NCBI RefSeq assembly: GCF_963924715.1 | Contig: NC_089527.1 | Span: 28,186,551 to 28,250,550 of the forward strand | Reading direction: 5' to 3' | DNA: 64,000 nt | Source: Thunnus thynnus | Lineage: Eukaryota | Shown here: positions 17,623-48,539 of the stretch, in pieces | Layout of the letters: the number at the start of each line of letters is the position of its first letter | Position numbering within the stretch: position 1 is the first letter of the stretch | Program-made: the position numbers and the translations under genes | Notes under the pieces: model-generated | Databases searched by the model: none | What the model was told of the DNA's origin: nothing | The model's input: only the letters and a program-made list of their open reading frames with translations

Positions 17623-17668
17623 TATTATTATTATTATTATTATTATTAATGATAATAATAATAATAAT

Positions 17669-17731
<63 letters not shown>

Positions 17732-20393: not shown

Positions 20394-20396
<3 letters not shown>

Positions 20397-20437
<41 letters not shown>
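20397..20437. repeat. (GA)n microsatellite
   Basis: Uninterrupted 'gagagaga...' for about 40 bp. Explains the ORFs 20265..20651(-) and 20272..20538(+) with (LS)n and (RE)n runs. Confidence 0.95.
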
Positions 20438-20440
<3 letters not shown>

Positions 20441-20566
20441 AGTTCATTTCTCTCCAAATTACTATACAAGAGAAGGAGACAGCATATCTTGCTGCCCAAT
20501 ATGTATCAACATGCAATAGCTTGAGGGACAGTGAATGACCTAGACACACACAGTACAAGCATGCAT

Positions 20567-20589
20567 TCACACACACACACACACACACA
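20567..20589. repeat. (CA)n microsatellite
   Basis: 'cacacacacacacacacacacaa'. Confidence 0.9.
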
Positions 20590-26959: not shown

Positions 26960-28225
26960 TCAGCATTCCGGGAAAAGCTTAAGCCAGGGTGCTGGAAAGG
27001 TGGCTCCAGCCGATTGTCTAACCTCAGATTAAGGAGGAACAATACAGATTTCGTCCTGGTTGTGGAACAGTGGACCAGCTCTTCACCCTTGCAAGGGCAC
27101 TTGAGGGGTACATCCAGTCTACATGTGCTTTGTAGACTTGGAAAAGGCTTACAACCATGTCCCTTGGGGCACCTTGTGGGTGGTGCTGTGGGAGCATGGG
27201 GTACCGGGGTTGTTGCTGCAAGCCATTCAGTCCTTATATAACCGCAGTGAAAGCTGTGTTCGCGTTCTCAACAGTAAGTCAAACTCATTCTCAGTGGGTG
27301 TTGGGCTCCACCAGGGTTGTCCCTTGTCACTGATTGTTTTTGTGATTTTCATGTACAGAATCTCAAGGCACAGCTGGGGGGAGGAGAGTGTCCAGTTTCA
27401 GGACCTAAGGATTGCTTCTCTGCTTTTTGCAGATGATGTGATTCTGTTGGTTTCAACACACCATCACCTCCAGCAGGCACTGGGACAGTTTGCAGCCAAA
27501 TGTGAAGCGGCCGACATGAGAGTCAGCACCTCAAAATCTGAGGCCATTGTGCTCTGCTGGAAAAAGGTGGACTGCTCCCTCTGAGTTCGGTGTGAGTCGC
27601 TGCTCCAAGTGAAGGACTTCAAGTATCTCGGGGTCTTATTCACAAGTTAGAGTAAGATGGAGCATGACATTGACAGGCGGATCAGTGCAGCATCAGCAGT
27701 AACACGGGTGTTGTGCTGGACCACTGTGGTAAAGAAAGAGCTGAGTCAGAAGGCAAAGCTTAATTTACCAGTTGGTCTATGTTCCAACCCTCAACTATTG
27801 TCACGGGCTTTGGGTAGTAACTGAAAGAATTAGATTGCAAATACGAGCGGCCGAGTTTCCTCCAGAAAGTGTCTGGACTCAGCCTTAGAGATAGGGTTAA
27901 GAGCTCCGACATCCGACCTTGAAGTAGAGCCACTGCTCCTTTGCATCGAAAGGAGCCAGCTGAGGTGGTTTGGGCACATGGTTAGGATGCCTCCTGGACG
28001 CCTCCCTCTGGAGGTGTTCCAGGCACATCCAACTGGTAGGAGACCCCGGGGCAGACCCAGAACACTCTGGAGGGATTACATATCTCTCCTGGCCTGGGAA
28101 CGCCTTTGGATCCCCCAGGAGGAGCTGGAGGGCGTTGCCAGGGAGAAGGATGTCTGGGTTTCCTTATTCAGTCTAATGCCGACCAAGTCCCGGATGGGCA
28201 ATGGAAAATGGATGGACTTTTAACT
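26960..28225 (+). mobile_element. 5'-truncated LINE (L2/CR1-like or Rex-like) reverse-transcriptase and C-terminal region fragment
   Basis: RT motifs in frame: 'FVDLEKAYNHVPWGTLW', 'GLHQGCPLSLIVF', 'LLFADDVILL', 'VSTSKSEAIVL'. C-terminal 'SQLRWFGHMVRMPPGRLPLEVFQAHPTGRRPRGRPRTLWRDYIS...WERLWIPQEELE' is typical of fish LINE ORF2 tails. Stops and frameshifts are present. Confidence 0.8.
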
Positions 28226-32300: not shown

Positions 32301-34537
32301 TTGAACACTTTAGTGATGTCTGTGATTGTTTCTGATGCTGTTTGTATGTGCTTGTATGTGTGACTGGCTGTGCTTTGTTGTATGTCTTATCTCCGTTCTT
32401 ATTTCTTCTACTGTACTCAGGTTTCTCCAAACGAGATATTCATCGCATTGAGACTACATGATTAGATAAAGGTTATACAATTTTTGGGGCAATAAAATGG
32501 AATATAACTAGTTCAAGTTTTATGTAAAGATATTGCAGTGATGGCAATGTAAGCACTTATTGCATAGGGGGCAGTAAGGGAAACCCTAACTGGCTTTTCC
32601 AAGTAGTTTGGATGGAAAATGTAATTCCTACCTGGATATTTTTCACTGGCAATATTTTCGAGTCAAGTCCAGGCATTTTCATACTGCACACACATTGGGA
32701 GGTTTTCTGGGTGGATGGTGGGCTTACAAAGTGCAGGTTTTTGACACTAGAGACCCAAACTCGCATCCTTATTTACGTCTGTGTTTAGGGAACATCACAC
32801 TTTGGTTATGGTAAGAGAAAAAATGTGGTTTCAGTTAACTGTTAATAAAGTAAACATGTCCTGCCTCATGCTTCATGTCATTGTTGACAAACACATTATT
32901 TTCCCTAACCTTGACCATGGTCTGTGGGTGCCTAGACGTGAGCATAGAGATGATTCTGCTATTACAGAACACCTCAGGCAGGCACAGTTTTAAAGGATAG
33001 GTTCACAAGTTTTCACCCAGACAACAGTCAGGTGCCCAGATGAACACCGACACATTATTTTTTGCTGGCCATTAAGAGATCCTTTCATAATACACTTTCA
33101 ATTCAAGTGATGGGGAATAAAATCAACAGTCCTCAGTCTGTATTTAACCTTTTAAAATCCACTGGGTCACCAGCGACCCGCTTAAGCCAGTTGGAAGCGG
33201 TAGTGTCACGCAATAATGAGTAAAAGCAATTGGCACAATTTGGCCAATTGGAGATGACTGGAGAGGTTCGGGGACACCAGTGACACCACAAAAACTCCCT
33301 AGCTCCCATAAGGTTAGGCCTAAAGGTCTGGAATTTTATACAGGTTGACAAGATGTAGAAAGTATATGGTGTTCTGCATAGTTCTGGCATAAAGTATGTC
33401 CTAATTATTATTATTAGAATATGACTCATAATAGCTGAGGACCAAAAACACTTTTTTGAGCCATATTTGAACTGACGTAATTTTGTTTGCGTTTTAGCCG
33501 CATGCTAAACAAGCACATTTCCAGAAACTAGAAGATGTCACTTGTCAAATGAAGCCCAATACATGCATTGTGGCCTTACAGTTCTTCTGTTATAAGCTTT
33601 TCCATCTGGGTGTGCAAAATAGGCAAAAATTCTATAAAAAGGGTGGCTGTTAAGGGGTTAAAGATAATATGAGACTTCAGCCATCCAAATTAGTCAAATC
33701 AAGTCAATATTCCCTCTTTTTGTTACTATCCTTCCACTGCAGCTAAACAGGCCTTGAAACACAAATAAGGATTTTATTTTCTAAAATCAACTTTATTTGA
33801 TTAGCCTCATATTATCTGCTGATAAGCTTTTGAAGACATTTTTCTCAAAACCAGGACTTTAGATTTTGTCCCCCAACACTTACATTGTAGGTATATTTGG
33901 AGTGGATCTTTTAATAGCCAGTATGAACAGGAGAAATGATTGCAGTGAGAAAAACCTGTTTCAATGTTCGTATGGGCACCTGTTGTTTTAAGAAAGAACA
34001 AAACAAAAAATGTGAACATATCCTTTAAGCATGTTTTGAAATGACAGAACTCTCTGGTGTTTACACATTATATCCAGTTATATCAAACATTAATTAAGGA
34101 ATAATCATTACCAGTATACCAGTACCAAGCACCCTACTTACACCACTGACAAGAAACATGCAATCTTGGATAAACTGTGTATACTTTACAAGCAAGAAAA
34201 CGCATCTACTTTTATAATATAGTAAGCAGTGCAAAAAATACATTATTTCTCATACAGAAAAAAAGACATTTTTCAATTTATTCACATTGGGATTCAATGT
34301 TTGTTCAATGTATTTTTTCTGTATCATTTATGTATGGCTAGATTTGTATAAACTGCTGTTTTATTTTTTAAAGAGACACTTGGTACAGTAATACACTTTC
34401 AATATACATTTACTTGCCTTGTTTCCGTTGTTTATTTTCACATTTTATTTTCAAGATAAATGTATTCTATCTTTTAAAGTAGTAAAATAATGAGTACACC
34501 ATGTGCAGAAAGATGTAACACTCATTGAGCAGATTAG

Positions 34538-34694
34538 TCACTTCAGCTTGACTTCATTTGGAATAGGTAAGCCTTTCACGCCAGCCAGGGCATTTTCCAC
34601 CATCTTCTCTACCATCCTGCTTGCTGTATTGTAGGTATTGATCCCAATGTGGGGGGTGATCAGCACATTAGGCAGGCTAAGGAGAGGATGATCC
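34538..34694 (-). CDS. grhpr: GRHPR-like D-2-hydroxyacid dehydrogenase, gene copy A, exon 5 (last; includes stop)
   Basis: Acceptor 'cttgtgcag|GGATCATCC'. Encodes 'R DHPLLSLPNVLITPHIGINTYNTASRMVEKMVENALAGVKGLPIPNEVKLK*', aligning with the human GRHPR C-terminus ('HPLLTLKNCVILPHIGSAT..TR..M....A.NLLAGL.G.PMP.ELKL'). TGA stop at 34538-34540. Paralog assignment is uncertain. Confidence 0.85.
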
Positions 34695-35458
34695 CTGCAC
34701 AAGATGAAGCATGAGGAATGAGTGAGCAGAAAATAATACATTAATCATATATTACTGTAGGATAGTGCATCAGTCTAGCTTGAGGATGTTGTTCTGGGCC
34801 TGTATTTATCAAACTAGTAAAAGTAATTTCATATTTTGGACTTAAGTGAAAGATAGAAGTAAAAATCCTTCGCTTTTACTCCTTACAAACTTAAGAATAA
34901 AAACTATTTATCAAACTTCTTTTGACTTAACAATGCTCTGAAATTATACTAAATATCATATGTCATAATGAATAATACATTACCTGAAGCTGTATAATTA
35001 AGAATAGAGTGGTGTAGCCACATATATTATTTGCATTTGATAGGACATAAAACCAATTTTTCTTTTTTTCTTTTGTTGTTAATTTCACTTGTTAATTACT
35101 CCTGGAGATTTAAAGATTTCACAAAAATAAACTTTTCAAAGACATGATAATGATGTTTGTTTTTTCAGAATATCATACTATACCACTGTGTAAACAGTAA
35201 GGCTATTTTAAGTATGTACAAAATGGCAGATGCAGCTTCAATCCATATCTCTGATTGACGACTTCATGTGATCAATTATGTGATCACATGAGAGTTACTC
35301 TTAAAATTGACTTTTACACTTTACACTTTTACACTTGATAAATATGTGTAATTGCTCACACTCAGCCAAGAACTTTTTTTACTTCTAGGTTGACTCTTTA
35401 GGGCATTCATAAGTGTTATTTTTAGAATTCTGAGAGTGTATGTTCAATGAAGTGAGAC

Positions 35459-35555
35459 CTTGGTAAAGGTTCAGGATGGGTCACATCTAATGCCGCTGCA
35501 CGGATTGTAGCCAACTGGAGAGCTTTAACTAAGGCATTCTGATCCACAACTTGAC
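35459..35555 (-). CDS. grhpr: GRHPR-like gene copy A, exon 4 (97 bp)
   Basis: Acceptor 'tctcag|GTCAAGTTG', donor 'CCAAG|gtctcac'. Encodes 'G QVVDQNALVKALQLATIRAAALDVTHPEPLP R' (compare human '[33 protein letters not shown]'). Confidence 0.75.
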
Positions 35556-35646
35556 CTGAGACATGAAAAGAGCATTATTAAGGTAACGTTAACCAGTAAT
35601 GATTCAATCAAGATCAACACAGTCTAGGAAACACACTGTTCCCCAC

Positions 35647-35825
35647 CTCTGCTGATGTTGACTAGTGTTGCCGTGGGTTTCATGAGGGACAACTCTCTGT
35701 GGCCGATGAGGCTTGTAGTGTCAGAGGTCAATTTGACAGCTATCATGACAAAGTCCGACCTTCTCAGCAGGTAATCCAGGCTCTCACAGTAAATCGCCCC
35801 GACTGCCTGCTCATCTTCAGCACTC
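35647..35825 (-). CDS. grhpr: GRHPR-like gene copy A, exon 3 (179 bp)
   Basis: Acceptor 'tgtattcag|GAGTGCTGAAG', donor 'AGCAGAG|gtgggga'. Encodes 'SAEDEQAVGAIYCESLDYLLRRSDFVMIAVKLTSDTTSLIGHRELSLMKPTATLVNISR(G)', the substrate/NAD domain with the conserved 'NISRG' catalytic Arg motif. Confidence 0.85.
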
Positions 35826-36290
35826 CTGAATACAATAACAAATTCCAACTTTTTTATACTCCAGCTTTCTACAGTGTTGTCAACATAATTAATGAGAGAC
35901 TGTATCTTGTTTTTTCTATTTAAAACATAATCTTTTTTGTGAAAAAAAATCTAGGTGGGTGTATTTAAAAAAAAATAAATACACCCACCGTACCATGTAA
36001 GAAAAATATTTAAATACTTAACTCAGTAAAATACCACCTCGTTAACCATTAGCAGGTGAGAGTCAATGGCTCTACATTATTTCCTGTGCAAGCATGTTTG
36101 TTTTCCTGTATGGTCTTGTGTAGTACATTCATATTGAGTGGGAAAACCCCATGATCAACAGTGTAAACTATCAAATGCAGTCATTGGTTATTTCTGCAAA
36201 AATGCAAACAAAAAATACTCAAATATCATGTTGTTACATGCTAATTAAAGAAATAACCTCATTAGCAAAGTTTGTCGTCTCTTTTTTTAC

Positions 36291-36462
36291 CTTCTGGTTC
36301 TATTGTGATACAGGATCTTCATTTCAAATCCTCTGCTTCTTTGGGCAATTTTGTAACCAATCTCTCCCATTCCAATGATTCCCAGAGTCGACCCTGTGAC
36401 TTCAACTCCCATCAGGCTTTGCAGTATATGGGTGGTCTTTGGGTCAACAGCAATATGATGAC
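36291..36462 (-). CDS. grhpr: GRHPR-like gene copy A, exon 2 (172 bp)
   Basis: Acceptor 'ttcctcatag|GTCATCAT', donor 'CCAGAAG|gtaaaaa'. Encodes '(G)[56 protein letters not shown](R)' with the Rossmann GxGxxG 'GIIGMGEIG'. Confidence 0.85.
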
Positions 36463-36954
36463 CTATGAGGAAAAAGGATTAAAAAGTAAACATTTTATAT
36501 ATGTATTACAGACCTCCTCACTCTGCCCTGATTAACAAGTAGCAACAAGGAAGTGATCCCTCTCTGGTTTCCCACCCAGCAACACTAATAATTTTAGGAC
36601 AAAACAATACTCCATACGTATGTTTTGCGGTTTTTCTTCGACCAAGTTTTAAAAATTAAGATTTTCAGATGACTTTACCAGGTTATGGAAGCTGATAATG
36701 TGATTTTGCTACAATATCTAAAATAAATAAAAATATTCTTTACATTCATCTGAAAATTGTGGACAACTAAGGATTAATTCCCTATTAAGACATAATAAAT
36801 ATGAGCCCTGGGACAGATGAAGGAGTTGCTCTGTCAATTTAAGTGCACACAGATGAACTTCTTTGAGATAACAGATAGCTGTAGGTCTTGGTTTTGGAAT
36901 TACATGGAGATTGTCACACACTGGGCCTGGGGTTCAGATAATCTTTGATCTCAC

Positions 36955-37333
36955 CCTCAAGGATCTTGCGAGCTGATGCCAGAAGCAGACCCATGGCAAA
37001 ATCTGCAGTGGCATTGCTCACTACACGAGGTGTGTTGGCCACCTTCACCCCAAGACTGTTGATGAACGGTACATCCAAGTGGTCGATGCCCACTCCTGCA
37101 CTTGCAACCACTTTGAGGGAGGGAAGCAATCTGAGCAGCGAAGGCTCGGCTGCAGGGCAGTACTTCCAAATTAAGAGGGCCTGGATCTTGGGGCCATGAA
37201 GCACTGGGTTTTGTAGAAACTCTCTGTAGCAGATGATTTGGAAGTGTTGTTTCAGTATGTCAGCTAGCTCTTCAAGGTAACCATTCTCTCCCCCCACCTC
37301 TGAGACCAATGCCCATGGTTTTTCCTCTTCCAT
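36955..37333 (-). CDS. grhpr: GRHPR-like gene copy A, exon 1 (ATG at 37331-37333; 379 bp)
   Basis: ORF 'MEEEKPWALVSEVGG...LKVVASAGVGIDHLDVPFINSLGVKVANTPRVVSNATADFAMGLLLASARKILEG' ends at donor 'GAGG|gtgagat'. Aligns with human GRHPR '[55 protein letters not shown]'. The five exons total 984 nt, giving a 327-aa product. Confidence 0.85.
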
Positions 37334-37554
37334 TGCTTGATGGGATAAGACACAAAAGGACTTACTGTACCACCTGACTGAAAATAGAGTTCAATTAGTA
37401 CAAAAGTACATGCAAAATTCGTCTACTAGCAAGCATTTGAAATATGTAAAATTTTCCAACAAATTTAACGAACATTTCCTTGGATTTAAATGGAGCTGTT
37501 CTTTAAATGAAAAAAAAATCCCCTATAATTTGTATAAAATTACATACTTCTCTC

Positions 37555-38720
37555 CAGAAAACTTTCTAGGTGATTTCTTTTTACTCTGAGTTAGTTTTAC
37601 AAGGAAAACTCACCTTTTCAACCTGAGCATCGAGTTTCAGTCCTGCTGTTTCCTCAGACCGAGGTAGAAGCTGAGGTCTTTTTTTTTTTTTCGAACTGAT
37701 CTTTGAGCCGTGTTGTGTTTTCATTCTCCATGGATGAAGTTAGAGTTTAAACGAGGCATGTTAATGTGAAAACCTGTCCTCACACTGTGGCACAGAGAGG
37801 TGGCAGGGCAAGAAATGTTGTGCTTGGTTCATTATTCACAAAAACATGAAGTATCAAGGAATTTAAGGTGTGTACAAGTGTACAAGGTGCAAAATTTGAA
37901 AAATATTTGTTTTCATACATTTTTATCTTAATGTATGTCATGGTGATTATGGTGGAATATTAGACTAAACAGAACAGCTGACTACAAATGTATGGGGAAA
38001 AAAAAGCATTTAATCTTTTATATCAATAAAATAATCAATGAAGAAAACTCATATGTCTCATTTGTCTTGTATGAATATATTTATTTTACTTAGCCAAGAA
38101 GAAACTTGCACACAACATGCAATCTGAGGTAAAAAAAACTTTCTAGGTGATTTCTTTTTACTCTGAGTTAGTTTTACAAGGAAAACTCACCTTTTCAACC
38201 TGAGCATCAAGTTTCAGTCCTGCTGTTTCCTCAGACTGAGGTAGAAGCTGAGGTCTTCTTTTTTTTGAACTGATCTTTGAGCAGCGTTGTGTTTTCATTC
38301 TCCATGGATGAAGTTAGAGTTTTAACGAGGCATGTTAATGTGAAAACCTGTCCTCACACTGTAGCACAGAGAGGTGGCAGGGCAAGAAATGTTGTGCTCG
38401 GTTCATTATTCACAAAAACATGAAGTATCAAGGAATTTAAGGTGTGTACAAGTGTACAAGGTGCAAAATTTGAAAAATATTTGTTTTCATACATTTTTAT
38501 CTTATTGTATGTCATGGTGATTATGGTGGAATATTAGACTAAACAGAACAGCTGACTACAAATGTATGGAAAAAAAGCATTTAATCTTTTATATCAATAA
38601 AATAATCAATGAAGAAAACTCATATGTCTCATTTGTCTTGTATGAATATATTTATTTTACTTAGCCAAGAAGAAACTTGCACACAACATGCAATCTGAGG
38701 TAAAAAAAAAAAAAAAAAGG
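37555..38720. repeat. Tandem duplication, ~585-bp unit x 2, in the GRHPR A-B intergenic region
   Basis: 37558-38140 and 38145-38720 are near-identical ('aactttctaggtgatttctttttactctgagttagttttacaaggaaaactcaccttttcaacctgagcatc(g/a)agtttcagtcctgctgtttcctcagac...'). Each copy ends with a poly-A run. On the minus strand each unit contains '...caggttgaaaag|gtgagttttcc', a consensus splice-donor-like site. Confidence 0.85.
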
Positions 38721-39107
38721 AAGCTGTTATACATATATTGTAGTAAGCCAGAAAAGAGCACAAGATTAGGGGGAAATGTACTCATAATGTTTTGGTTATG
38801 ATAATGTCTGAACATAATCTTTATACTCACATACACCAGTTGGAGTCAGTTTTCTTTCCTATCCTAACACATTCCAGTCAGAACCAGTTTTGTACATCCT
38901 TGCCTTGCGACATTGTTCATTGGAACAGTACTAAAGGTTACAAAGTCCCTTCAAGTTATACAGCAGATGAGCAGCAATTTTCTCATGTACCTTTTGGCAA
39001 ATTCTGGCACAATAATTAGCCAGCATTTCACGGCAACAATTTATGACTCTACAATCGCCTAATTTGACACATGACAAAAATACCATGTAGTCTGAATCTG
39101 GCATTAG

Positions 39108-39264
39108 TCACTCAAATTTGACTTCATTTGGAATAGGTAAACCATTCACTGCAGCCAGGGCATTTTCAACCATCTTCTGTACAATCCCTCTTACTGTAGC
39201 ACAAGTATTCATGCCAACGTGGGGGGTGATTAGCACGTTAGGCAGGCCAAGGAGAGGATGATCC
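39108..39264 (-). CDS. grhpr: GRHPR-like gene copy B, exon 5 (last; includes stop)
   Basis: Acceptor 'cttgtgcag|GGATCATCC'. Encodes 'R DHPLLGLPNVLITPHVGMNTCATVRGIVQKMVENALAAVNGLPIPNEVKFE*'. TGA at 39108-39110. Confidence 0.85.
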
Positions 39265-39596
39265 CTGCACAAGATGAAACAGAGGAGTTGTAAGGAGTGG
39301 TCAAGGAGCTGGTTGAGTGTTTGGTAAATGTTCATTCTACGTAGTACGTAAATATATCACATTTTAAATTAATGAACTATACTGATTGTATTTTTTTTTT
39401 GTTTGTTTTTTATTTTGTAATTTCCTGTTCAGATCTTTCCACTGTCCTTGTAAGATGATAATGTCCCTGAATGCCTCACGTGTCTGTACACACTGTGTTC
39501 TTATGCAGACTGAAGAAGTGTCAAGGCCATGTTTAATACAATTTAAGTAACATTCGTTGCACTTTGTTGTACAATAAAGTGATTCAAAGATGAGAC

Positions 39597-39693
39597 CTCG
39601 GTAAAGGTTCAGGGTGAGTCACATCTAAAGCTGCTGCACGAATCATTCCAGACTGGAGAGCTTTGACTAAGGCATCCTGGTCCACCAATAGAC
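39597..39693 (-). CDS. grhpr: GRHPR-like gene copy B, exon 4 (97 bp)
   Basis: Acceptor 'tctcag|GTCTATTGG', donor 'CCGAG|gtctcat'. Encodes 'G LLVDQDALVKALQSGMIRAAALDVTHPEPLP R'. Confidence 0.75.
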
Positions 39694-39799
39694 CTGAGAT
39701 ATGTAAAGAGCAAAATATGGCTAAATATGAGAGTTTCAGATTCTAGCAATTATCTAATCAAAATGAATCAGTACAGTCTAGCAAACACATTGTTCCCAC

Positions 39800-39978
39800 C
39801 TCTGCTGATGTTGACCAGTGTTGCCGTGGGTTTCATTAGGGACAGTTCTCTGTGGCCGATGAGACCTGTCGTGTTGGGAGTCAGATTGACAGCTAGCATG
39901 ACAAAGTCCGCCCTTCTCAGCAGGTCACCCAGGCTCTCGCAGAAAGTCGCCTCGACTGCTTGTTCATCTTCAATACTT
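39800..39978 (-). CDS. grhpr: GRHPR-like gene copy B, exon 3 (179 bp)
   Basis: Acceptor 'tactgttcag|AAGTATTGAAG', donor 'AGCAGAG|gtgggaa'. Encodes 'SIEDEQAVEATFCESLGDLLRRADFVMLAVNLTPNTTGLIGHRELSLMKPTATLVNISR(G)'. Confidence 0.85.
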
Positions 39979-40202
39979 CTGAACAGTAACCAAGCGAACA
40001 AGAGTAGAAACATTGTCTCACTGAGTTATTGTTTTCAGATTTTTGTTTGTAATTTACAGTACACACACTGCAGGTCTTTTATGGTCCATTATTGAAAGTC
40101 AAGTATAACAGATTGTTTCAGAAATTACTTTTTTTTTTGGTCTGCACATTTCTATGAATTGATTTGTCAAAATGTAGTGATGATGTCATCAAACACGTTT
40201 AC

Positions 40203-40374
40203 CTTCTATTCCTGTTGTGATACAGGATCTTCATGTCAAATCCTCTGCTTCTTTTAGCTATTTTGTATCCAATCTGACCCATTCCAATGATCCCCAAAGT
40301 GGATCCTGTGACATCAACTCCCATCAAGTTTTGTGCTAAATAGGTAGTTTTTGCATCCACAGCTATTTGGTGAC
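40203..40374 (-). CDS. grhpr: GRHPR-like gene copy B, exon 2 (172 bp)
   Basis: Acceptor 'cttcatag|GTCACCAAATAG', donor 'AATAGAAG|gtaaacg'. Encodes '(G)[56 protein letters not shown](R)'. Confidence 0.85.
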
Positions 40375-41309
40375 CTATGAAGAAAAGGACCAAATCAGTC
40401 ACTGTTTTTATAAAAGCCTGTACTGCTGCTGCAGGGCTCTGAAAGGCTAACTCTGTATTCACTGCTAACCTCAGCTGTGTACTGTATATGGAGGCTGTAG
40501 TGTGCCACCAGAATAATTAAACATGTATATAGTTGTTTCCTCTAGTACAATTATCAGGTCAAAATTTTAATTTGTCCAGTACTTTAGTGCAAAACTAATA
40601 ACATTCACATCAGCCTCAGCTGTACTTTGTGTTTAGTATTAATAAGCAAAATGCTAATGTAAGATGGTGAGCAAGAAAACACAGAAAAAAAGACATTTGG
40701 ATGTCTTTCCTTGACCAGCTGGTGGAAATCTTCATCTATTTAAATAATTTATTTACTTGAGGACAGCATTATAAAATGTATTAATTTCTTTTTTTTTTCT
40801 TAAAACTGTGTAGCCTAAATGTTGTTTTCATCTTAAGGCTAGTCTGTTATGCCTTTTCGCTTGATGTTTTTGATGTTTTCTTGATTGTTTTTGAAAATTT
40901 TGAAATTACAGCATGCCTAAATCCTGACAAAGACTCTTAGTCTGGTGCAGTGTTTGATGATCAAATATAATTGGATTGTGAAATTATTTTTGAAAAGTCT
41001 TTTAAATTTGTAGGTAAATTTGTGGTATTACATTACTAATGGGTGTTCCATTATTGAATTAAAGAATTGTTGTAACCTGTCCATCATTTAAAGAAGTAGT
41101 TCAACATTTTTAACTGACTGATGGCACATTAAGGAGTCTACCTCAAAACCTGAATCTGACTACCTCTTGTTAAACCTTATGTCAGTTTTATAATTAAAAA
41201 ATGATTTACTCTCACAATTACTCCCAAGAAAAATGTGCACCAGGTTTTGGTTTTGGAATCGTTCCACAATGTCCATGCAATTCGGGGCTCAATTAACCTT
41301 TCACTTTAC

Positions 41310-41688
41310 CCTCAACAATCCTCCGTGCTGATGCCAAAAGCAGACCCATTGCAATATCTGCAGTGGCATCACTGACCACACCAGGTGTGTTGGTCACCTT
41401 CACCCCTCGACTGGTGATGAAAGGCACATCCAGGTGATCGATGCCTGCTCCTCCGTTGGCTACGACTTTCAGCAAGGGAAGCAAATTAAGCAGCAAATGC
41501 TCAGCTGCAGGGCAGCAGCTCCACACGAACATGGCTTGGATTTTAGGGCCGTGCAGTAGGGGGTTCTGTAGGAACTCTCTGCTGGTGATTATTTGGAAGT
41601 GTGGTTCCATTATGTCAGCTAACTTTTCAAGAAAAGCTTGCTTCACGCCCTCCTCTGAGAGCAAGGCCCAGGGTTTGTCCTTTTCCAT
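41310..41688 (-). CDS. grhpr: GRHPR-like gene copy B, exon 1 (ATG at 41686-41688; 379 bp)
   Basis: 'MEKDKPWALLSEEGVKQAFLEKLADIMEPHFQIITSREFLQNPLLHGPKIQAMFVWSCCPAAEHLLLNLLPLLKVVANGGAGIDHLDVPFITSRGVKVTNTPGVVSDATADIAMGLLLASARRIVEG', with donor 'GAGG|gtaaagtg'. The start is chosen at the second Met of ORF 41293..41736 by alignment with copy A. About 70% amino-acid identity to copy A over this exon. Confidence 0.8.
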
Positions 41689-44125
41689 CACCTGGAGGGA
41701 TGAAATACAAAGATAAACACAGTAGAACTCAAACAATTTGGTTCATCTCATATCACTGGCAGCTTTCAGTATGTCTCCTTGCTTCTTAGTTCCTCCTGGC
41801 TAACTGTAGTTAGCCAGCCCCCCAGTAGCCAGTGCGAGCCAAACCAGCATAGCCCCTACACTCCCACTGGTAGTTCCCGAGCAGCCAGGAAGCCAGGGTG
41901 GCTGGGTGTCTGTCCAAAGGAAGCATAGCCCTAAGCAGAAGCCCACGGTCCACCACCAACCAGTTTTTGTTTCTAATAAGTAATAAGCAGTAAGGTTCTC
42001 CCTACTCAGCAGCACATCCGCTGAGAAACCAACTCTGATTATTGGTAGCTCCATCGTGAGAAACGTGAAGTTAGTAACACCAGCAACCATAGTCAAATGT
42101 ATTCTTTGGGCCAGAGTGGGCAATATAGCATCCTATTTAAAACTGCTGGCTAAGGATAAGCCTAAATATGGTAAAATTATTATTAACATTGGTGGTAACA
42201 GCTCTCAATTACACCAGTTGGAGGTCACTAAAATTAATGTTGTGTACATATGTTGTGTACATATGCAAAGACAATGTCGGACTCAGTAGTTCTCGGGGCC
42301 CCTGCCAAATCTGACCAGTGATGACATGTATAGCCGCATGTCATCAGTCAATCACTGGCTGTCATAGATAATTGGTGGACTTTCTGGGGAAGACCTGGTC
42401 TGATTAGGAGAGACGGCATACATCCCACTTTGGATGGAGCAGCTGTCATATCTAGAAATATGGCTGAGTTTATTAGAAGACCAAAATCATGACAACCCAG
42501 AGTTGAGACCAGGAGGCAGAGCTGCAGTCCTAGATGCTTCTCTGTGCTTCCATTAGAGCAGTTACCCAACCAAAAACCACATAGAAGGTTAAATCAATTA
42601 AATCTAAAGTAAACAGAAGAGGAATTATACATAAAAATCTGATAAAATTAACACCATAATTGCAATAGTATGTAGGAGAATTAAAAATGTATTCTTAAAC
42701 ATTGGATCTCTCTCATCTATAGCTGTATTAGTAAATGATCTAATATCAGATTATCATATTGATTTATTTAGTCTTACTGAAATCTGGCTGTGTGATGAAG
42801 AATATGTTAGCCTAAATGAATTCACTCCCCCCAGTCATATTAAAACTCACATTCATCAAGACACTGTCCAAGGAGGTGGAGTTGCAACTATTTTCAACTC
42901 AACCCTAATGATTAACCCTAGACCCAAATTTAATCATAACTCATTGGAAAGTCTTGTTCTTAGTCTCTCTCATCCAACCTGGAAAAGTTTCCAGCCAATT
43001 CTATTTGTTATTGTGTACCTGTACTTGTAATTTTATCTGAATTCTCACTTTTTATCAAACTTAGTCCTTAGTACAGATAAAGTAATTATAGTGGGTGACT
43101 TTGATATTAAAGTGGACGTTGATAATAATAGTCTTAGTACTGCATTTATTTCATTATTAGACTCAACTAGCTTCTCTCAGAGTGTAATTAAACCCACTCA
43201 CTGTTTCAACCACACCCTCAACCTTGCTCTGACATATGGCATCGAAATTGATCATTTAATAGTCTTTCCACAAAATCCTATTTTATCAGATCATTACTTA
43301 ATAACTTTTGAAATCCTATTACTGGACTACATACCATTAGTCAAAAATGTCTTCACTAGATAGCTAGATTTAGTTAAATTTAAGGAAGCAATTCCATCAG
43401 CAATGAATTCAGTGCCATGTCTCAATACAACAGTAGTACAACAACTTAGTCCCTCCAAACTTGATCATCTAGTTGATAGTCCCGCGGGGCCACTGTGAAT
43501 AACACTCTACTCCATCACTTCTTTAAAAAAGAAGATAATAAAACACAAGACGCTAGCTCCATGGTATAATAATATGGCAAATTAAAGCAAACATTACGAA
43601 AACTTTAAAGCAGATGGCATTCCATTCATTCCACTGGAAGACTGGAAGAATCTTGCTTAGTCTGGCAAGATAGTCTTAAAACATACAGGAAGAACCTCTG
43701 TAATGCCAGATCACTCATCATTAATAGAGGAGACAGCCCTAGGTTCCTTTTCAGCACTTTGGCCAGGCTGACAATGAGTCATAACTCTATTGATCTAGGT
43801 ATTCCTATAGCTCTTACTAGTAATGACTTTATGAGCTTCTTTAATGATAAAAATTTTAACTATTAGAGACAAAATTCATCACCTCCTGCCCTAAACAGAC
43901 ATCGATTTGTCCCCAAACACAGGAACCTTAGAAACAGCTGTAAAACCTGATATATATTTAGGCTGTTTTTCTCCACTTGACCTTCTTGAACTAACTTTAA
44001 CAATTTCTTCATCTAAACCATCAACCTGTCTCTTAGACACCATCCCAGCTAGGCTGCTTAAGGAAGTCTTACCCTGAATTAGCACTTCTTTACTAGATAT
44101 GATCAATCTGTCTTTAGTAACAGGC

Positions 44126-45664
44126 TACAGCACTGCTTGAAAGTTTGTGAACCCTTTAGAATTTGCTCTATTTCTGCATAAATATGACCTAAAATGTGAT
44201 CAAATTTCCATGCAAGTCCTAAAAATAGATAAAGAGACATCAGTTAAACAAATGAGACAAAAACCTTACACTTGTTTGTTTATTTATTGAAGAAAATGAT
44301 CCAATGTTACATATTTGTGCGTGGCAAAAGTATGTGAACCTCTAGGATTATCAGTTTATTTGAAGGGGAAATTAGAGTCGGGTGTTTCAGTCAATGAGAT
44401 GACAATCAAGTGTGAGTCTGGGAGGCCCTGCCTTATTTAAAGAAGAGAAATCTGGGTCTTCACTATCAAAGTCTTAGCTTCACAACACAGGTTTGTGGAA
44501 ATGTGTCTTGGCTCAAACAAAGGATATTTCTGAGGACCTTAGAAGAAGAGTTGAAGATGCTCACCAAGCTGGAAAGGGTTACAAAACCATTTCTAAAGAG
44601 TTTGGACTCCATCAGTCGAATATCAGGCAGATTGTGGACAAATTGAGGACGTCCAACACCATTGTTACCTTCCCCGGGAGTGGTCAACCAACAAAAATCA
44701 CACCATGAGCAGAATTGTAATTCTCCGGGTGGCCACAAGGGACCCCAGGGTAATGTCTAGGAAACTAAAGTCCTCTCATGCAGTGGCTACAGTCAGTATT
44801 CATGAGTCCACCATCAGGAGGATATTGAACATCAATGGTGTGCATGGCAGAGTTGCAAGGAAAAAAGCCACTTCTCTCCAAAAAGAACATTGCCTTTTGG
44901 CTTGAATGAGAAGCATTATGTTTGGCAATGAACAAACACTGCATTCCAGCATTAGAACCTCATCCCATCTGTGAAACATGGTGGTGGTAGTATCATGGTT
45001 TGGGCCTGCTTTGCTACCTCTGGACCAGGACAACTTCCAATCATTGAAGGAGCTATCAGTTCTGAGGTATACCAGCACATTCTATAGGAAAATGTCAAGG
45101 TATCTGTCTGTGAACTGAAACTCAACAGAAAGTAGGTCATGCAATAAGACAATGACCCTAAACACACAAGTTGTTCTACCAAAAAATGGTTAGAGCAGAA
45201 GAAGGATAATGTTTTGGAATGGCCGAGTCAAAGTCCTGACCTTAATCCTATAGAAATGCTGTGTAAGGACCTGAAGCAGGCAGTTCATGCAAAGAAGCCC
45301 AATATCTCACCAACAGTTGAGACTGTTCTGTAAGGAGGATTGGCTAAAATTCCACCAAGCTGATATGCAGGGCTGATAAACAGTGACCAGAAACGTTGGG
45401 TTGAAGTTATTGCTGCAAAAGGGGGTCACACCAGTTACTGAAAGCAAGGGTTCACATACTTTTGCCTCCCACAAATATGTGAGATTGGATAATTTTCCTC
45501 AATAAATAAATGAAAAAGTTTATTTTTTTGTCTCATTTGTTTAATTGGGTTCACTTAATCTAGTTTTAGGACTTGTAAATATCTGATCACGTGTTAGGTC
45601 ATATTTATATTGAAATATAGAAAATTCTAAAGGGTTCACAAACTTTCAAGAAGCACTATATGTA
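44126..45664 (+). mobile_element. Tc1-like DNA transposon, copy 2 (~1.54 kb, near full-length), nested inside the L2 LINE
   Basis: Termini 'tacagcactgcttgaaagtttgtgaaccctttagaatttgctctatttctgcataaatatgacc...' and inverted 'ggtcatatttatattgaaatatagaaaattctaaagggttcacaaactttcaagaagcact'. ~220-bp inverted repeats. Same family as copy 1 (4295-5431). LINE reading frames resume immediately on both sides. Confidence 0.9.
44493..45450 (+). pseudogene. Tc1-like transposase, disrupted by frameshifts and stops
   Basis: 'AQTKDISEDLRRRVEDAHQAGKGYKTISKEFGLHQSNIRQIVDKLRTSNTIVTFPGSGQPTKI' (HTH). 'RVATRDPRVMSRKLKSSHAVATVSIHESTIRRILNINGVHGRVARKK'. DDE region '...HGGGSIMVWACFATSGPGQLPIIEGAISSEVYQHIL..NV...DNDPKHTS...WPSQSPDLNPIEMLCKDLKQAVHAKKP' spread over three frames. 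Confidence 0.85.
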
Positions 45665-48539
45665 CCACAGTCCTTTAAAGTAGCAGTAATTAAACCCCTT
45701 CCCAACAAGTCTATTCTTGATCCAGGTGTTTTAGCCAACTATAGACCTATATCTAACGTTCCTTTTCTCTGTAAGGTCCTTGAGAAAGCAGTCGCCAATC
45801 AGTTGTGTGACTTTCTACATAACAATAGTTTATTCAAGGATTTTCAGTCAGAATTTAGAGCGCTTCATAGCACAGAGACAGCACTGGTGAAAGTTACTAA
45901 TGATCTCCTAACTGCATTGGATAAACAACTTCTCTCTGTACTTGTCTTGCTAGATCTTAGTGATGCATTTTGCACCATTGACCATCACATCCTATTACAG
46001 AGACTTGAACATTTAATTGGCATTAAAGGAACTGGACTAAGCTAGTTTAAGTCCTATTTATCAATTCGATTTCAGTTCATATACATTAACAATGCATGCC
46101 TTAAGGACATAACTGACGCATAACTGAATTGAACTGAAGCATGCCTGGATGACCTGCAATTTTCTGCTAATGAACTCAGACAAAACTGAAGTTATTGTGC
46201 TTGGCCCTAAAGACCTTAGAAACACATTATCTAATTATATAGCTACTGTAGATGGTATTACCCTGGCCTCCAGCACCACTGTAAGGAATCTGGGAGTTAT
46301 CTTTGATCAGGATATGTCCTTAAACTCCCACATAAAACAAATTTCAAGGACTGCCTTTTTTCACCTTTGTAATATTGCAAAAATCAGGCAAATCCTGCCT
46401 CAAATAGATGCAGATAAAATAGTCCATGCATTTGTTACTTCTAGGCTGGATTATCGTCATTCCTTATTATCAGGCTGCCCTAACCAGTCTCTAAAGACTC
46501 TCCAGCTGGTCCAGAATGCAGCTGCACGTGACAATAGTGTGCTCCCAGAATGCAGGCTTACTTGTGGTTCCTAGATTCTCCAAAAGTAGAATGGGAGGTC
46601 AAGGCAGATGGCTGCCCACCTAGAGCCTGGTTCTGCTTGAGGTTTCTTCCTGTTAAAGGGGAGATTTTCCTTGCTGCTGTCACCAAGTGCTTGCTCATGG
46701 GAGAATGCTAGGTCTCCCCAACATTCAATTAAAGAGTGCCTTGAGATAACTTCTGTTGTGATTTGGCGCTATATAAATAAAACTGACTTGACTTGACAGA
46801 AAAAATGCTCTAGTGTATTTAGTGGATTAGGATGACTGCAAGGGCAGATTTCATTTGTCTGTGAAATTTCTAACCAAGCCCTTTGTAATGTAGTGACAAA
46901 GTGATCTAAGACTTGAGTCACACATGCAAGAACTTCAAATGAACTATCACATCCATCTAACCTCCTCCCTACAAGATTTTGTTGTGCTAGTAACATCACA
47001 CTCTTTGCACCTTTTGTTCCTGAAGGGTCATAATTTACACAGCCATGAGGTCCATATTACTTAAACGTAAACAGAGTTTGTTGTAGGTATTTGAACAAAT
47101 TAAACTTTGTTTAATAATTAAAACTTTATTGTTTCTCTAATGAGGACGGTCTCATATTAAAGCACTCACAGCTATAAGTTGGCCTTTAGCTTACTGTAGA
47201 TTCTCTTTAGTGGATTTGCTTACATTTTTCACAAACATAATGAGAAGTCACTGATGGAAAAAAAAGGATGTAAAAGCAGAATGGTTTGAAACAGAACCGA
47301 GGTTGTAAAGAAGTAGACATTGCAATAAAGAATATAGCAGTGGAAAATCTCCCCATTTGGAGGATTGCTGAAATGTGACAGATTTGAAATAGACTGATCT
47401 GAAAAACCAGACAATAAAATAAATAAGATTAGGTAAAAGTGGACAGAAAATATCCAAACCAAGAGAGCATCTGAGCAAACAAACTACCAACTGTCAACCA
47501 AGTATGGAGCTGAACACAAGTCAGAAGCACTGTACTTTTTCAGCTTTACTTTTAGAGTTGACCTATAAATTGAGTTTACTGAGTTGAGGTTTTTTTTTTT
47601 TGTTTTTTTTTTTTAAGGCAGCAGGAGAACTTGTGTTTCAAAGTTGAACCAGACTGAAATGTTGTACAGTGTACTTTTCATGAGGCTGGAAGAACACTAT
47701 CAAAGTGCTTTTCTCCATCTTTATTCTACCTCACTTTGCTTTAGGGGTAAAATCCCACTGGAAACTGCAGGGTTTAGTCATTCTTTATTCAATTCACCTC
47801 ATACCTTTGTAAAAGAATTAAAAGGAATCAAATGGAGGAATTCCTCTATTGTGAGATGTGTAGGTAATATTTACTGTAAAGGCAATCAAAGTTAACAGGC
47901 ATAACAGTGTCTATGTAAAGACCCTAGGGATCTACTGCTCTGAAACCTTTTTGTAACACTTTGATCATGCTGGAAGAAGAAAAACTGATTGTATTTAGTC
48001 TGGGATGCCTCATACTTCAGTTTGAAGAGACAATAAACCCAGAGTTTGAAAAAATCTCATTTATATGCATCATCTTGTACAACATTTATTGTACAAAACT
48101 TTGGATTGACAATGTCTTATAATGTCTGAGCATGACAAATGTAACTGATGAATCACAACTCAAATACATAAATAAAACAATAGAACAGTTTATTATTTTA
48201 TTTAGATGAACTGTGGAAATATTTTCTTTTTCTTTTTCTTTAATTTCCAAAGAGTTGGATGGGCTATATTATTCAGTTGGTTCAGACTGAAATATCTCAG
48301 CAACTGTTGGATGGATTACCACACTTTTTTTCACAGACATTCATGGTGCCCAGGGGATAAATGGAAAAGGCTTTTTTTTCCTCTAGTGCCACCAGTGAAG
48401 TGACATTTTCAGTTTAAAGTTAAAAGTCACCTAATCTGTTGGAATGAAATGGCCATGAAATTTGGTAAAGACATTCATGTCCCCGTCAGGATGAATTGTA
48501 AGAATTTCGATGATCCCTGACTTCCCATGTAATGCCACT

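What the first reader, a model, noticed from the sequence alone, without database searches (positions are those of the whole stretch)
34538..41688. Tandem pair of intact, diverged GRHPR-like genes with perfectly conserved exon architecture
Two complete GRHPR-like genes sit head-to-tail on the minus strand, 1.8 kb apart. Each has five coding exons of exactly 379/172/179/97/157 nt with identical intron phases. Both have canonical GT-AG introns, a Rossmann GxGxxG motif, the NISRG and PH(I/V)G catalytic motifs, and no stops. They are only about 70% identical at the protein level over exon 1, so this is an old duplicate pair kept under selection, not a recent segmental copy. The C-termini also differ (copy A '...KLK', copy B '...KFE'). 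Copy B has 'HQIA' where copy A has 'HHIA' at the exon 1/2 junction, and 'GMIRAAALD' versus 'LATIRAAALD' in exon 4. These are sites where substrate or cofactor preference could plausibly have diverged.
Basis: partly seen in the sequence, partly recalled or inferred. Interest (0 to 1): 0.55.

Follow-up and report, generated by a model that had tools for sequence, protein, structure and literature searches.

The report
Tandem tuna 2-hydroxyacid dehydrogenase gene pair
Two intact neighbouring genes in the Atlantic bluefin tuna genome encode related NADPH-type 2-ketoacid reductases; they are an old duplicate pair, are already annotated in public databases, and are distant cousins of the kidney-stone gene GRHPR, not its fish counterparts.

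Summary
Two head-to-tail genes lie on the minus strand, each with five coding exons of 379/172/179/97/157 nt, GT-AG introns and a 327-aa open reading frame. They are 76% identical in protein and 1.8 kb apart.

The window is Thunnus thynnus. Copy A is exactly RefSeq XP_067458763.1. Copy B is XP_067458765.1, apart from one NAGNAG-acceptor codon. RefSeq names both 'probable 2-ketogluconate reductase'.

They are D-2-hydroxyacid dehydrogenases related to the GHRB (GRHPR/GhrB) group, but they are not GRHPR orthologues:
- They are 35% identical to human GRHPR, whereas true fish and shark GRHPR is 72-75% identical.
- They have 5 coding exons against 9, with no exactly shared intron.
- GRHPR's substrate-pocket residues Ser296, Trp141, Arg302 and Leu59 are replaced.

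They belong to a metazoan lineage (zebrafish zgc:136493), and tuna has a third paralogue on another chromosome.

The duplication is old. The B-then-A order recurs in Enoplosus. Decayed B relics sit upstream of A in Scomber and Seriola, and an A relic follows an intact B in Pampus.

Both copies are under purifying selection (dN/dS 0.17-0.29). The catalytic triad and an Arg-rich NADPH-type loop are intact. Substrates are unknown.

This is an ordinary, already annotated gene pair of low novelty.

The parts
41310..41688 (-). Copy B coding exon 1 (ATG at 41688-41686; 379 nt). An acceptor-like cag at 41694-41692 lies 3 nt upstream of the ATG. An alternative donor 12 nt downstream gives the 331-aa T. 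maccoyii isoform X1.
40203..40374 (-). Copy B exon 2 (172 nt). Encodes the Rossmann GIIGMGQIG motif and the start of the NRNRRS cofactor loop.
39800..39978 (-). Copy B exon 3 (179 nt). The tandem acceptor cAG|AAG (39981-39976) allows a 176-nt form that lacks Arg184, as in RefSeq XP_067458765.1. The exon ends in NISRG, which holds the catalytic Arg243.
39597..39693 (-). Copy B exon 4 (97 nt). Encodes Asp267 and the catalytic Glu272. The donor GAG|GTCTCA is weak but conserved.
39108..39264 (-). Copy B exon 5 (157 nt including the TGA stop). Encodes the catalytic His291 and the pocket residues Met294 and Val300-Arg-Gly-Ile303.
38651..38656 (-). First AATAAA downstream of the B stop; likely poly(A) signal of B.
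   Evidence: motif position only; no transcript evidence
38135..38709 (-). Intergenic repeat unit 1, 97.4% identical to unit 2. It carries a second copy of the putative A promoter and 5' exon, with a donor-like AAAAG|GTGAGT whose GT is at 38190-38189.
37558..38138 (-). Intergenic repeat unit 2 (581 bp). It is single-copy in Enoplosus, Pampus, Scomber and Seriola, where it is about 66-70% conserved. T. maccoyii has three copies.
37614..37680 (-). Putative non-coding 5' exon of copy A. Its 3' end at 37614 is set by the donor AAAAG|GTGAGT; its 5' end is approximate. The donor is conserved in Enoplosus, Scomber, Seriola and Pampus.
   Evidence: conservation only; inferred, no RNA evidence
36955..37377 (-). 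Copy A first coding exon. The acceptor cag is at 37380-37378, followed by a 44-nt 5'UTR, the ATG at 37333-37331 and a 379-nt coding part (37333-36955).
36291..36462 (-). Copy A exon 2 (172 nt). Encodes GIIGMGEIG and the NRTRRS cofactor loop.
35647..35825 (-). Copy A exon 3 (179 nt). Ends in NISRG, which holds the catalytic Arg243.
35459..35555 (-). Copy A exon 4 (97 nt). Encodes Asp267 and Glu272. The donor is AAG|GTCTCA.
34538..34694 (-). Copy A exon 5 (157 nt including the TGA stop). Encodes His291 and the pocket residues Ile294 and Ala300-Ser-Arg-Met303.
34431..34449 (-). Two AATAAA motifs 89-102 nt downstream of the A stop; likely poly(A) signals of A.
   Evidence: motif position only

Best explanation
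Window 34.5-41.7 kb, minus strand, of the Thunnus thynnus genome holds two intact tandem paralogues, B upstream and A downstream. Each encodes a 327-aa D-isomer-specific 2-hydroxyacid dehydrogenase. The proteins are related to the GHRB (glyoxylate/hydroxypyruvate reductase B) group. Within it they belong to an old metazoan lineage that NCBI calls 'probable 2-ketogluconate reductase' and that is zgc:136493 in zebrafish. This lineage is separate from GRHPR.

Likely mechanism (inferred from conserved residues and family knowledge). The enzyme is probably a homodimer, as its solved relatives are. Each subunit binds NADPH in a Rossmann domain through GxGxxG and an Arg-rich NR(T/N)RRS loop that lacks the NADH-specifying Asp. 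It transfers a hydride to C2 of a 2-oxo-acid held by Arg243. His291, paired with Glu272, donates the proton, and the product is a D-2-hydroxy acid. The physiological substrate is unknown. GRHPR's hydroxypyruvate-selecting Ser296, the pocket-capping Trp141 and Arg302 are replaced: by Ile, His and Ala in A, and by Met, Tyr and Val in B. The enzymes are therefore probably not hydroxypyruvate-optimised. A, B and the third paralogue C (Thr at 294) may differ in substrate preference.

History (shown by comparative loci). The tandem duplication predates the split of tunas and butterfishes, jacks and Enoplosus. Copies were then lost differentially. Both are intact in Thunnus and Enoplosus. B is a pseudogene in Scomber and Seriola. 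A is truncated in Pampus.
For: - Gene models and ORFs.
- Family: Pfam 2-Hacid_dh_C at E = 4e-57 and 1e-58, plus 2-Hacid_dh. The best PDB sequence matches are glyoxylate and 2-ketogluconate reductases at 191-203 bits; human GRHPR scores 171 bits.
- Public annotation: A equals XP_067458763.1 exactly; B equals XP_067458765.1 apart from one NAGNAG codon. The same gene pair is called in T. maccoyii and T. albacares.
- Not GRHPR: 111/319 (A) and 108/319 (B) identical residues with human GRHPR, against 72-75% for true GRHPR orthologues. Invertebrate members (Lingula, amphioxus, echinoderms, Styela) score 224-297 bits with A but 155-191 bits with GRHPR. Sturgeon GRHPR has 9 coding exons and no intron exactly shared with the tuna genes.
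- Active site: Arg, Glu, His and Asp are invariant in all 128 members of the lineage in the alignment and in the 8 GRHPR sequences. Pocket substitutions are tabulated and interpreted with PMC6303947.
- Age: introns 1, 2 and 4 do not align between A and B. Enoplosus has the same B-then-A tandem with identical exon lengths. Frameshifted B relics lie upstream of A in Scomber and Seriola. Pampus has an A relic. The B clade (Thunnus, Pampus, Enoplosus) has 95-100% bootstrap support.
- Selection: dN/dS is 0.17-0.29 in all comparisons. Among three Thunnus species B shows 1 nonsynonymous to 6 synonymous differences.
Against: - No transcript evidence for A or B themselves was obtainable. The full-length Logan cDNA contigs recovered from Thunnus are for paralogue C only.
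- B has been lost repeatedly in related fishes, so it is dispensable in some lineages.
- Within Thunnus, A shows 7 nonsynonymous to 2 synonymous differences. This could mean constraint on A has relaxed recently.
- No member of this animal lineage has been characterised biochemically in the searched literature. The substrate and cofactor statements are therefore inferences from alignment to GRHPR and other GHRB enzymes.
- The neighbour-joining tree does not resolve the branching order of A, B and C (support 0-31%). Gene conversion, seen in Enoplosus exons 3-4, can blur it.
Confidence: 0.88

Rival explanations
1. The two genes are the teleost GRHPR co-orthologues (grhpra/grhprb).
For: UniRef labels many members 'Glyoxylate reductase/hydroxypyruvate reductase'. 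The fold and the catalytic motifs are the same.
Against: Identity to human GRHPR is 34-35%, against 72-75% for GRHPR of a cyprinid, sharks, sturgeon and coelacanth. There are 5 coding exons against 9, with no exactly shared intron. GRHPR-invariant Leu59, Trp141, Ser296 and Arg302 are all replaced. No GRHPR cluster appears among the best 150 representatives found with copy A.
Confidence: 0.02
2. Copy B is a decaying or non-functional duplicate whose reading frame is still open by chance. Alternatively, copy A is the one decaying in tunas.
For: B is a frameshifted, unannotated relic in Scomber and Seriola. B evolves about 1.8 times faster than A at nonsynonymous sites (dN 0.109 versus 0.062). 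No full-length Logan cDNA was found for A or B. For A: 7 nonsynonymous to 2 synonymous differences among three Thunnus species, and A is truncated in Pampus.
Against: The B ORF is intact in T. thynnus, T. maccoyii and T. albacares, and there are annotated full-length or near-full-length models in Pampus, Enoplosus and, partially, T. orientalis. dN/dS between Thunnus B and Enoplosus B is 0.21-0.28. Within Thunnus, B shows 1 nonsynonymous to 6 synonymous differences. The catalytic residues are intact. A is retained at 80-88% identity across 45 percomorph sequences, with dN/dS of 0.17-0.21.
Confidence: 0.08
3. The pair is a recent segmental duplication or an assembly artefact.
For: The exon lengths and splice-site hexamers are identical. 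A 581-bp tandem duplication in the spacer shows that the locus does undergo recent duplication.
Against: The coding sequences are only 81.6% identical, with dS about 0.5. Introns 1, 2 and 4 do not align. The same two genes are present in two other Thunnus assemblies at about 99% identity. The same arrangement occurs in Enoplosus.
Confidence: 0.01
4. The genes were acquired from bacteria by horizontal transfer, since the closest solved structure is a bacterial-type 'probable 2-ketogluconate reductase'.
For: The best PDB match is 9m0t 'Probable 2-ketogluconate reductase', ahead of human GRHPR. Unnamed metagenome proteins are about as similar to A (44-47%) as invertebrate homologues are.
Against: The genes have four spliceosomal introns with family-wide conserved positions. 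Homologues occur in a brachiopod, echinoderms, amphioxus, a tunicate, a ray, a bichir, birds, felids and a marsupial. This distribution fits vertical descent from an early animal gene.
Confidence: 0.02

Closest known systems
Thunnus paralogue C ('probable 2-ketogluconate reductase' XP_042291911.1 / XP_044191640.1; orthologue of zebrafish zgc:136493)
   Same: It is 78% identical to A and 80% to B. It has the same five-coding-exon layout and the same AG|GTCTC exon-4 donor, and the same catalytic residues and Arg-rich cofactor loop.
   Different: It lies on another chromosome. It has 326- and 360-aa isoforms, the longer with an N-terminal extension. It is one residue shorter in exon 1. It has Thr, not Ile or Met, at pocket position 294, and Thr-Arg-Arg-Met at 300-303. 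It has direct cDNA support, L009.
Human GRHPR (PDB 2gcg; primary hyperoxaluria type 2 gene) and its vertebrate orthologues, including zebrafish grhpra/grhprb
   Same: It is a 2HADH that PMC6303947 assigns to the GHRB subfamily, and A and B match it and other GHRB enzymes best. It has the same Arg-Glu-His triad, Asp269, GxGxxG and NISRG, and a similar length of 328 aa. It prefers NADPH.
   Different: It is only 34-35% identical. It has 9 coding exons. Its Gly-Ser296 motif, Trp141, Arg302 and Leu59 define its small hydroxypyruvate/glyoxylate pocket, and these are replaced in A and B.
Prokaryotic GHRB enzymes: Pyrococcus glyoxylate reductases (2dbq, 5aov, 6bii), 'probable 2-ketogluconate reductase' 9m0t, E. 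coli GhrB/TkrA
   Same: These are the best-scoring solved relatives, at 191-203 bits. The alignment runs over about 260-300 residues. They share the (S/N)R(T/H)R(K/R) cofactor loop.
   Different: They are prokaryotic, intron-less genes. Pyrococcus GYAR keeps the Gly-Ser motif linked to hydroxypyruvate preference. The name '2-ketogluconate reductase' on the fish genes is transferred by similarity only and has not been tested.

Membership tests
D-isomer-specific 2-hydroxyacid dehydrogenase superfamily (2HADH) | Catalytic domain plus NAD(P)-binding domain (Pfam PF00389 and PF02826) above the gathering thresholds | tested here: met
   A: 193 and 67 bits. B: 198 and 66 bits. Cut-offs are about 25 bits.
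D-isomer-specific 2-hydroxyacid dehydrogenase superfamily (2HADH) | Rossmann GxGxxG pyrophosphate loop and the Arg-Glu-His catalytic triad with the supporting Asp | tested here: met
   G152-x-G-x-x-G, R243, E272, H291 and D267 are present in A and B. They are invariant in all 136 aligned sequences.
GHRB subfamily (glyoxylate/hydroxypyruvate reductase B; Matelska et al. 2018, PMC6303947) | Closest characterised relatives are GHRB members (GRHPR_HUMAN, GYAR_PYRHO, GhrB-type 2-ketogluconate reductases), not SERA, CTBP, LDHD or FDH | tested here: met
   The top PDB hits are glyoxylate and 2-ketogluconate reductases at 171-203 bits. PHGDH-type entries are mostly lower (118-137 bits), though one chain named phosphoglycerate dehydrogenase (1wwk) reaches 178 bits. 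Formate dehydrogenase scores 113 bits or less. Placement in the authors' reference tree was not done.
GHRB subfamily (glyoxylate/hydroxypyruvate reductase B; Matelska et al. 2018, PMC6303947) | βB-αD loop without the NADH-specifying Asp and with an Arg-rich fingerprint, as expected for NADPH preference | tested here: met
   The loop is YHNRTRRS in A and YHNRNRRS in B, and R183-R184 is conserved in all three teleost clades. Actual cofactor use cannot be tested here.
GRHPR orthologue group (human GRHPR, zebrafish grhpra/grhprb) | Orthologue-level similarity (jawed-vertebrate GRHPRs are 72-75% identical to human) | tested here: not met
   A is 35% and B 34% identical to human GRHPR. Cyprinid, shark, sturgeon and coelacanth GRHPR are 72-75% identical.
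GRHPR orthologue group (human GRHPR, zebrafish grhpra/grhprb) | Nine-coding-exon gene structure with its intron positions | tested here: not met
   Sturgeon GRHPR has introns at 49.2, 93.1, 117.2, 156.2, 186.1, 221.1, 266.2 and 310.1 (complete codons.phase). Tuna has introns at 126.1, 183.2, 243.1 and 275.2. None coincides exactly. One falls in the same Gly codon of NISRG but in a different phase.
GRHPR orthologue group (human GRHPR, zebrafish grhpra/grhprb) | Substrate-pocket residues Gly-Ser296, Trp141 (from the partner subunit), Arg302-x-x-Met305 and Leu59 | tested here: not met
   A has Ile294, His138, Ala300..Met303 and Lys57. B has Met294, Tyr138, Val300..Ile303 and Ser57. All 8 GRHPR sequences keep S, W, R, M and L.
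Metazoan 'probable 2-ketogluconate reductase' / zgc:136493 lineage | Clusters with named members to the exclusion of GRHPR, and shares the five-coding-exon structure | tested here: met
   The best 120 hits are nearly all teleost members at 69-99% identity, plus a few long bird models. The teleost clade has 100% bootstrap support. Paralogue C and the Enoplosus genes have the same exon layout.
Metazoan 'probable 2-ketogluconate reductase' / zgc:136493 lineage | 2-keto-D-gluconate reductase activity, as implied by the name | not testable with these tools
   The name is transferred by similarity. No biochemical study of an animal member was found.

The most novel reading that the evidence does not exclude
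In tunas and butterfishes, copy B may have become the main or a newly specialised enzyme, instead of being a redundant spare. Its pocket is changed (Met294, Val300-Arg-Gly-Ile303, Ser57). B is the only intact copy in Pampus. In Thunnus, B is the more constrained copy (1 nonsynonymous to 6 synonymous differences, against 7 to 2 for A). In mackerel and amberjack the same copy decayed. This would be lineage-specific neofunctionalisation of an uncharacterised vertebrate 2-oxo-acid reductase.
Probability: 0.2. Interest if true: 0.35.

Novelty: already known. Interest (0 to 1): 0.15.

Why it matters
It matters little beyond careful annotation. Both genes are already in RefSeq for this species. Tandem duplicates of metabolic enzymes are common in teleosts.

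There are three modest points of value:
1. These genes should not be read as fish GRHPR, the primary hyperoxaluria type 2 gene. They belong to a separate, biochemically uncharacterised animal lineage of the GHRB group. That lineage occurs in fishes and birds and in at least some mammals (felid and marsupial models).
2. The locus is a clean example of birth-and-death evolution, with reciprocal loss of A or B in related fishes.
3. The three tuna paralogues differ at the residue aligned with GRHPR Ser296 (Ile, Met or Thr). This gives a simple, testable hypothesis for substrate divergence.

Tried and rejected
- GRHPR orthology was tested and rejected.
- The recent-duplication or artefact reading was rejected.
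- Bacterial horizontal transfer was considered because the top PDB hit is bacterial-type. It was rejected on introns and animal-wide distribution.
- Direct transcript support for A and B was sought but not obtained. The 90% clusters hold no full-length Logan cDNA for A or B, only a 147-aa product that matches the unspliced exon-1 ORF and so probably comes from genomic DNA.
- The neighbour-joining tree with 200 bootstraps could not resolve the order of the A, B and C splits. A 1-codon indel that I hoped would unite A and B turned out to be a deletion in percomorph C. Signature residues instead suggest that A-type genes already existed in Megalops, Esox and Polymixia.
- Tandem Repeats Finder missed the 581-bp spacer duplication because its period limit is 500. 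BLAST found it.
- Rebuilding Pampus B with the tuna exon lengths failed at exon 1. I relied on the annotated protein P0122 instead.
- Literature searches for zgc:136493 and for fish '2-ketogluconate reductase' found nothing functional.
- Rfam and tRNA scans of the whole window were empty.
- Structure prediction was not run. The fold is not in doubt, and coordinates would not have been returned for pocket measurements.

Full report
**Observation.** I read window 34000-42200 on the minus strand and spliced the proposed exons.
- Copy B exons: 41688-41310, 40374-40203, 39978-39800, 39693-39597, 39264-39108.
- Copy A exons: 37333-36955, 36462-36291, 35825-35647, 35555-35459, 34694-34538.
- Each copy has exons of 379/172/179/97/157 nt. 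All introns are GT..AG. Each CDS is 984 nt and encodes 327 aa with one terminal stop.
- The copies are 76% identical in protein and 81.6% in coding DNA, with 71-72% protein identity in exon 1.
- tblastn finds no third copy in the window.
- All the quoted motifs and C-termini are present.

**Species and annotation.** Copy A is 99% identical to a T. maccoyii protein, and copy B differs by one residue from a protein shared by T. albacares and T. maccoyii. The region is about 99% identical in DNA to both genomes, where the same two adjacent genes are called. An exact-sequence look-up shows that the window's A protein is XP_067458763.1 of Thunnus thynnus. The RefSeq B model of that species, XP_067458765.1, has 326 aa. 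It differs from my 327 aa only by one Arg at the exon 2/3 junction. The cause is a tandem cAG|AAG acceptor at 39981-39976. The genes are therefore already annotated, as 'probable 2-ketogluconate reductase'.

**Family.** Both proteins match Pfam 2-Hacid_dh_C (E = 4e-57 and 1e-58) and 2-Hacid_dh. The best solved relatives are 'probable 2-ketogluconate reductase' 9m0t and archaeal glyoxylate reductases at 191-203 bits. Human GRHPR scores 171 bits. PMC6303947 places human GRHPR, Pyrococcus GYAR and E. coli GhrB in one heterogeneous subfamily, GHRB.

**Not GRHPR orthologues.** My recalled human GRHPR sequence was verified as identical to PDB 2gcg. Used as a query, it recovers true orthologues from sharks, sturgeon, paddlefish, coelacanth, lungfish and a cyprinid at 72-75% identity. 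Tuna A and B are only 35% and 34% identical to it. No GRHPR cluster is among the 150 best representatives found with A.

The nearest non-vertebrate relatives of A are from Lingula, amphioxus, sea urchins, a sea cucumber, a crinoid and a tunicate. These score 224-297 bits with A against 155-191 bits with GRHPR. Members also exist in a manta ray, a bichir, birds, felids and a marsupial.

Gene structure agrees. Sturgeon GRHPR has nine coding exons, and none of its eight introns coincides exactly with the four tuna introns. A and B thus belong to a separate, old animal lineage related to the GHRB group. UniRef labels some members Zgc:136493. I found no functional literature on it. One chicken liver transcriptome paper lists the bird gene, as 2KTGRL.

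**A third paralogue, and the exon architecture.** Thunnus has a paralogue C on another chromosome, with 326- and 360-aa isoforms. It is 78% identical to A and 80% to B. C has the same five-coding-exon layout. A 1517-nt Logan cDNA contig from run SRR33509415 shows its five exon blocks. The Enoplosus A and B genes have the identical 379/172/179/97/157 layout. The 'perfectly conserved architecture' is therefore a family trait.

The weak exon-4 donor AG|GTCTC(A/G) is conserved in A, B and C across Thunnus, Enoplosus, Scomber, Seriola and Pampus. The C cDNA uses the homologous junction. It is a genuine splice site.

**Age of the duplication.** Between A and B only the exons, about 20 nt of flanks and the short intron 3 still align.
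- In Enoplosus armatus the same B-then-A tandem is annotated.
- In Scomber scombrus and Seriola dumerili only A is annotated. Upstream of it lies an unannotated B-like relic, with HSPs in different frames within exon 1 and 38-66% identity elsewhere.
- In Pampus argenteus B is intact. A is reduced to an exon-1 fragment followed directly by A's 3' flank.
- In the neighbour-joining tree the B clade (Thunnus, Pampus, Enoplosus) has 95-100% bootstrap support.

The duplication thus predates the divergence of these percomorph lineages and was followed by differential loss. By general knowledge of fish time-trees, which I did not test here, that is roughly 100 million years.

The order of the A, B and C splits is unresolved. 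A-type signature residues (Lys57, Ile294, Ala300) occur in Megalops, Esox and Polymixia. C-type residues occur in Centroberyx and Myripristis. The A/C split may therefore be older than percomorphs.

**Selection.** Values are NG86-ML ranges:

| Comparison | dN/dS |
|---|---|
| A vs B within tuna | 0.24-0.29 (dS about 0.5) |
| Thunnus A vs Enoplosus A | 0.17-0.21 |
| Thunnus B vs Enoplosus B | 0.21-0.28 |

B evolves faster (dN 0.109 against 0.062) but is clearly constrained. Enoplosus exons 3-4 are 93% identical between its A and B, against 78-84% in the other exons. This indicates local gene conversion.

Among three Thunnus species, A has 7 nonsynonymous and 2 synonymous variable codons, while B has 1 and 6 (Fisher p = 0.04). 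This is a small sample and remains unexplained. It argues against B being the decaying copy in tunas.

**Mechanism.** Arg243, Glu272, His291 and Asp267 align with GRHPR Arg245, Glu274, His293 and Asp269. They are invariant in all 136 sequences examined. The cofactor loop is YHNR(T/N)RRS. It has no NADH-specifying Asp and resembles the NADPH fingerprint. The inferred chemistry is NADPH-dependent reduction of a 2-oxo-acid to a D-2-hydroxy acid.

The residues that PMC6303947 links to GHRB substrate choice differ from GRHPR and among the paralogues:

| GRHPR residue | Role | A | B | C |
|---|---|---|---|---|
| Ser296 | hydrogen-bonds the hydroxypyruvate hydroxyl | Ile (41/45 in clade) | Met in Thunnus and Pampus, Thr in Enoplosus | Thr (67/72) |
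| Arg302-x-x-Met305 | limits C2 substituents | Ala-Ser-Arg-Met | Val-Arg-Gly-Ile | Thr-Arg-Arg-Met |
| Trp141 | from the partner subunit; excludes large substrates | His | Tyr | mostly His |
| Leu59 | pocket lining | Lys | Ser | Asn |

The enzymes are thus likely to prefer substrates other than GRHPR's, and the paralogues may differ from one another. This is inference and has not been shown.

**Surroundings.** The 1.8-kb spacer contains a 581-bp unit duplicated in tandem (37558-38138 and 38135-38709, 97.4% identical). T. maccoyii has three copies. The unit is single-copy and about 66-70% conserved in the other genera.

Each unit ends in a strong donor-like AAAAG|GTGAGT. This donor, together with an acceptor 44 nt upstream of A's ATG, is conserved in Enoplosus, Scomber and Seriola. 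In Pampus, where A is dead, the acceptor AG has become AA. Gene A therefore probably has a non-coding 5' exon. In bluefin tuna its promoter region is duplicated.

AATAAA motifs lie 89-102 nt after the A stop and 452 nt after the B stop. The rest of the window is rich in LINE reverse-transcriptase and Tc1/Sleeping-Beauty-like fragments. It has no Rfam or tRNA hits.

**Verdict.** The GRHPR label needs correcting to a distinct GHRB-type lineage. The genes are already annotated, so novelty and interest are low.

Noticed in passing
window 37558-38709 (minus-strand spacer between B and A): A 581-bp unit is tandemly duplicated (97.4% identity). T. maccoyii has three copies, and Enoplosus, Pampus, Scomber and Seriola have one. 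The unit holds B's first AATAAA and the putative promoter and non-coding 5' exon of A. Bluefin tuna therefore carries two copies of that element.
   Followed up: partly
window 39976-39981 (acceptor of B exon 3); the same position in A is 35823-35828 (cAG|GAG): This is a NAGNAG tandem acceptor. Using the distal AG removes Arg184 from the NRNRRS cofactor loop. The T. thynnus RefSeq model uses the distal AG (326 aa). The T. albacares and T. maccoyii models use the proximal one (327 aa).
   Followed up: partly
window A and B coding exons versus L001 (T. maccoyii) and L002 (T. albacares): Among three Thunnus species, copy A has 7 nonsynonymous and 2 synonymous variable codons. Copy B has 1 and 6 (Fisher p = 0.04). 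This is the reverse of the long-term pattern, in which A is the more conserved copy.
   Followed up: partly
L005 6171-8869 (Scomber scombrus); L006 3928-6639 (Seriola dumerili): Unannotated, frameshifted relics of copy B lie just upstream of the annotated A gene in both species.
   Followed up: partly
L004 21829-23832 and 25415-26029 (Pampus argenteus): B is intact. A is reduced to a diverged exon-1 fragment followed directly by sequence homologous to A's 3' flank. The acceptor upstream of A's ATG is AA, not AG.
   Followed up: partly
L003 11573-11937 versus 15247-15609 (Enoplosus armatus exons 3-4 of B and A): These exons are 93% identical between the two Enoplosus paralogues, against 78-84% in the other exons. 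This suggests a local gene-conversion tract.
   Followed up: partly
window 4585-5266, 10900-12240, 27105-27581, 42635-46571, 44416-45230: The flanks are dominated by transposon debris: LINE reverse-transcriptase fragments (Pfam RVT_1) and two Tc1/Sleeping-Beauty-like transposase HTH fragments. One of the latter appears nested inside the LINE-like stretch upstream of B.
   Followed up: partly
window 60627-61115 (-) and 56611-57333 (+): These are long open frames of 163 and 241 codons with no Pfam match. They could be exons of a neighbouring gene or chance or transposon-derived frames.
   Followed up: no
window 17340-17975 and 20268-20651: Low-complexity tracts. The first is an AT-rich simple repeat that translates as runs of I, N and Y. 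The second is a dinucleotide microsatellite that translates as SLSLSL or RERERE.
   Followed up: no
proteins P0016, P0107, P0121 (birds); P0144, P0145 (felids); P0158 (sugar glider): Bird models of 508-563 aa match the query twice and look like fused tandem copies. Members or fragments of this lineage are also predicted in felids and a marsupial, so it is not absent from all mammals.
   Followed up: no
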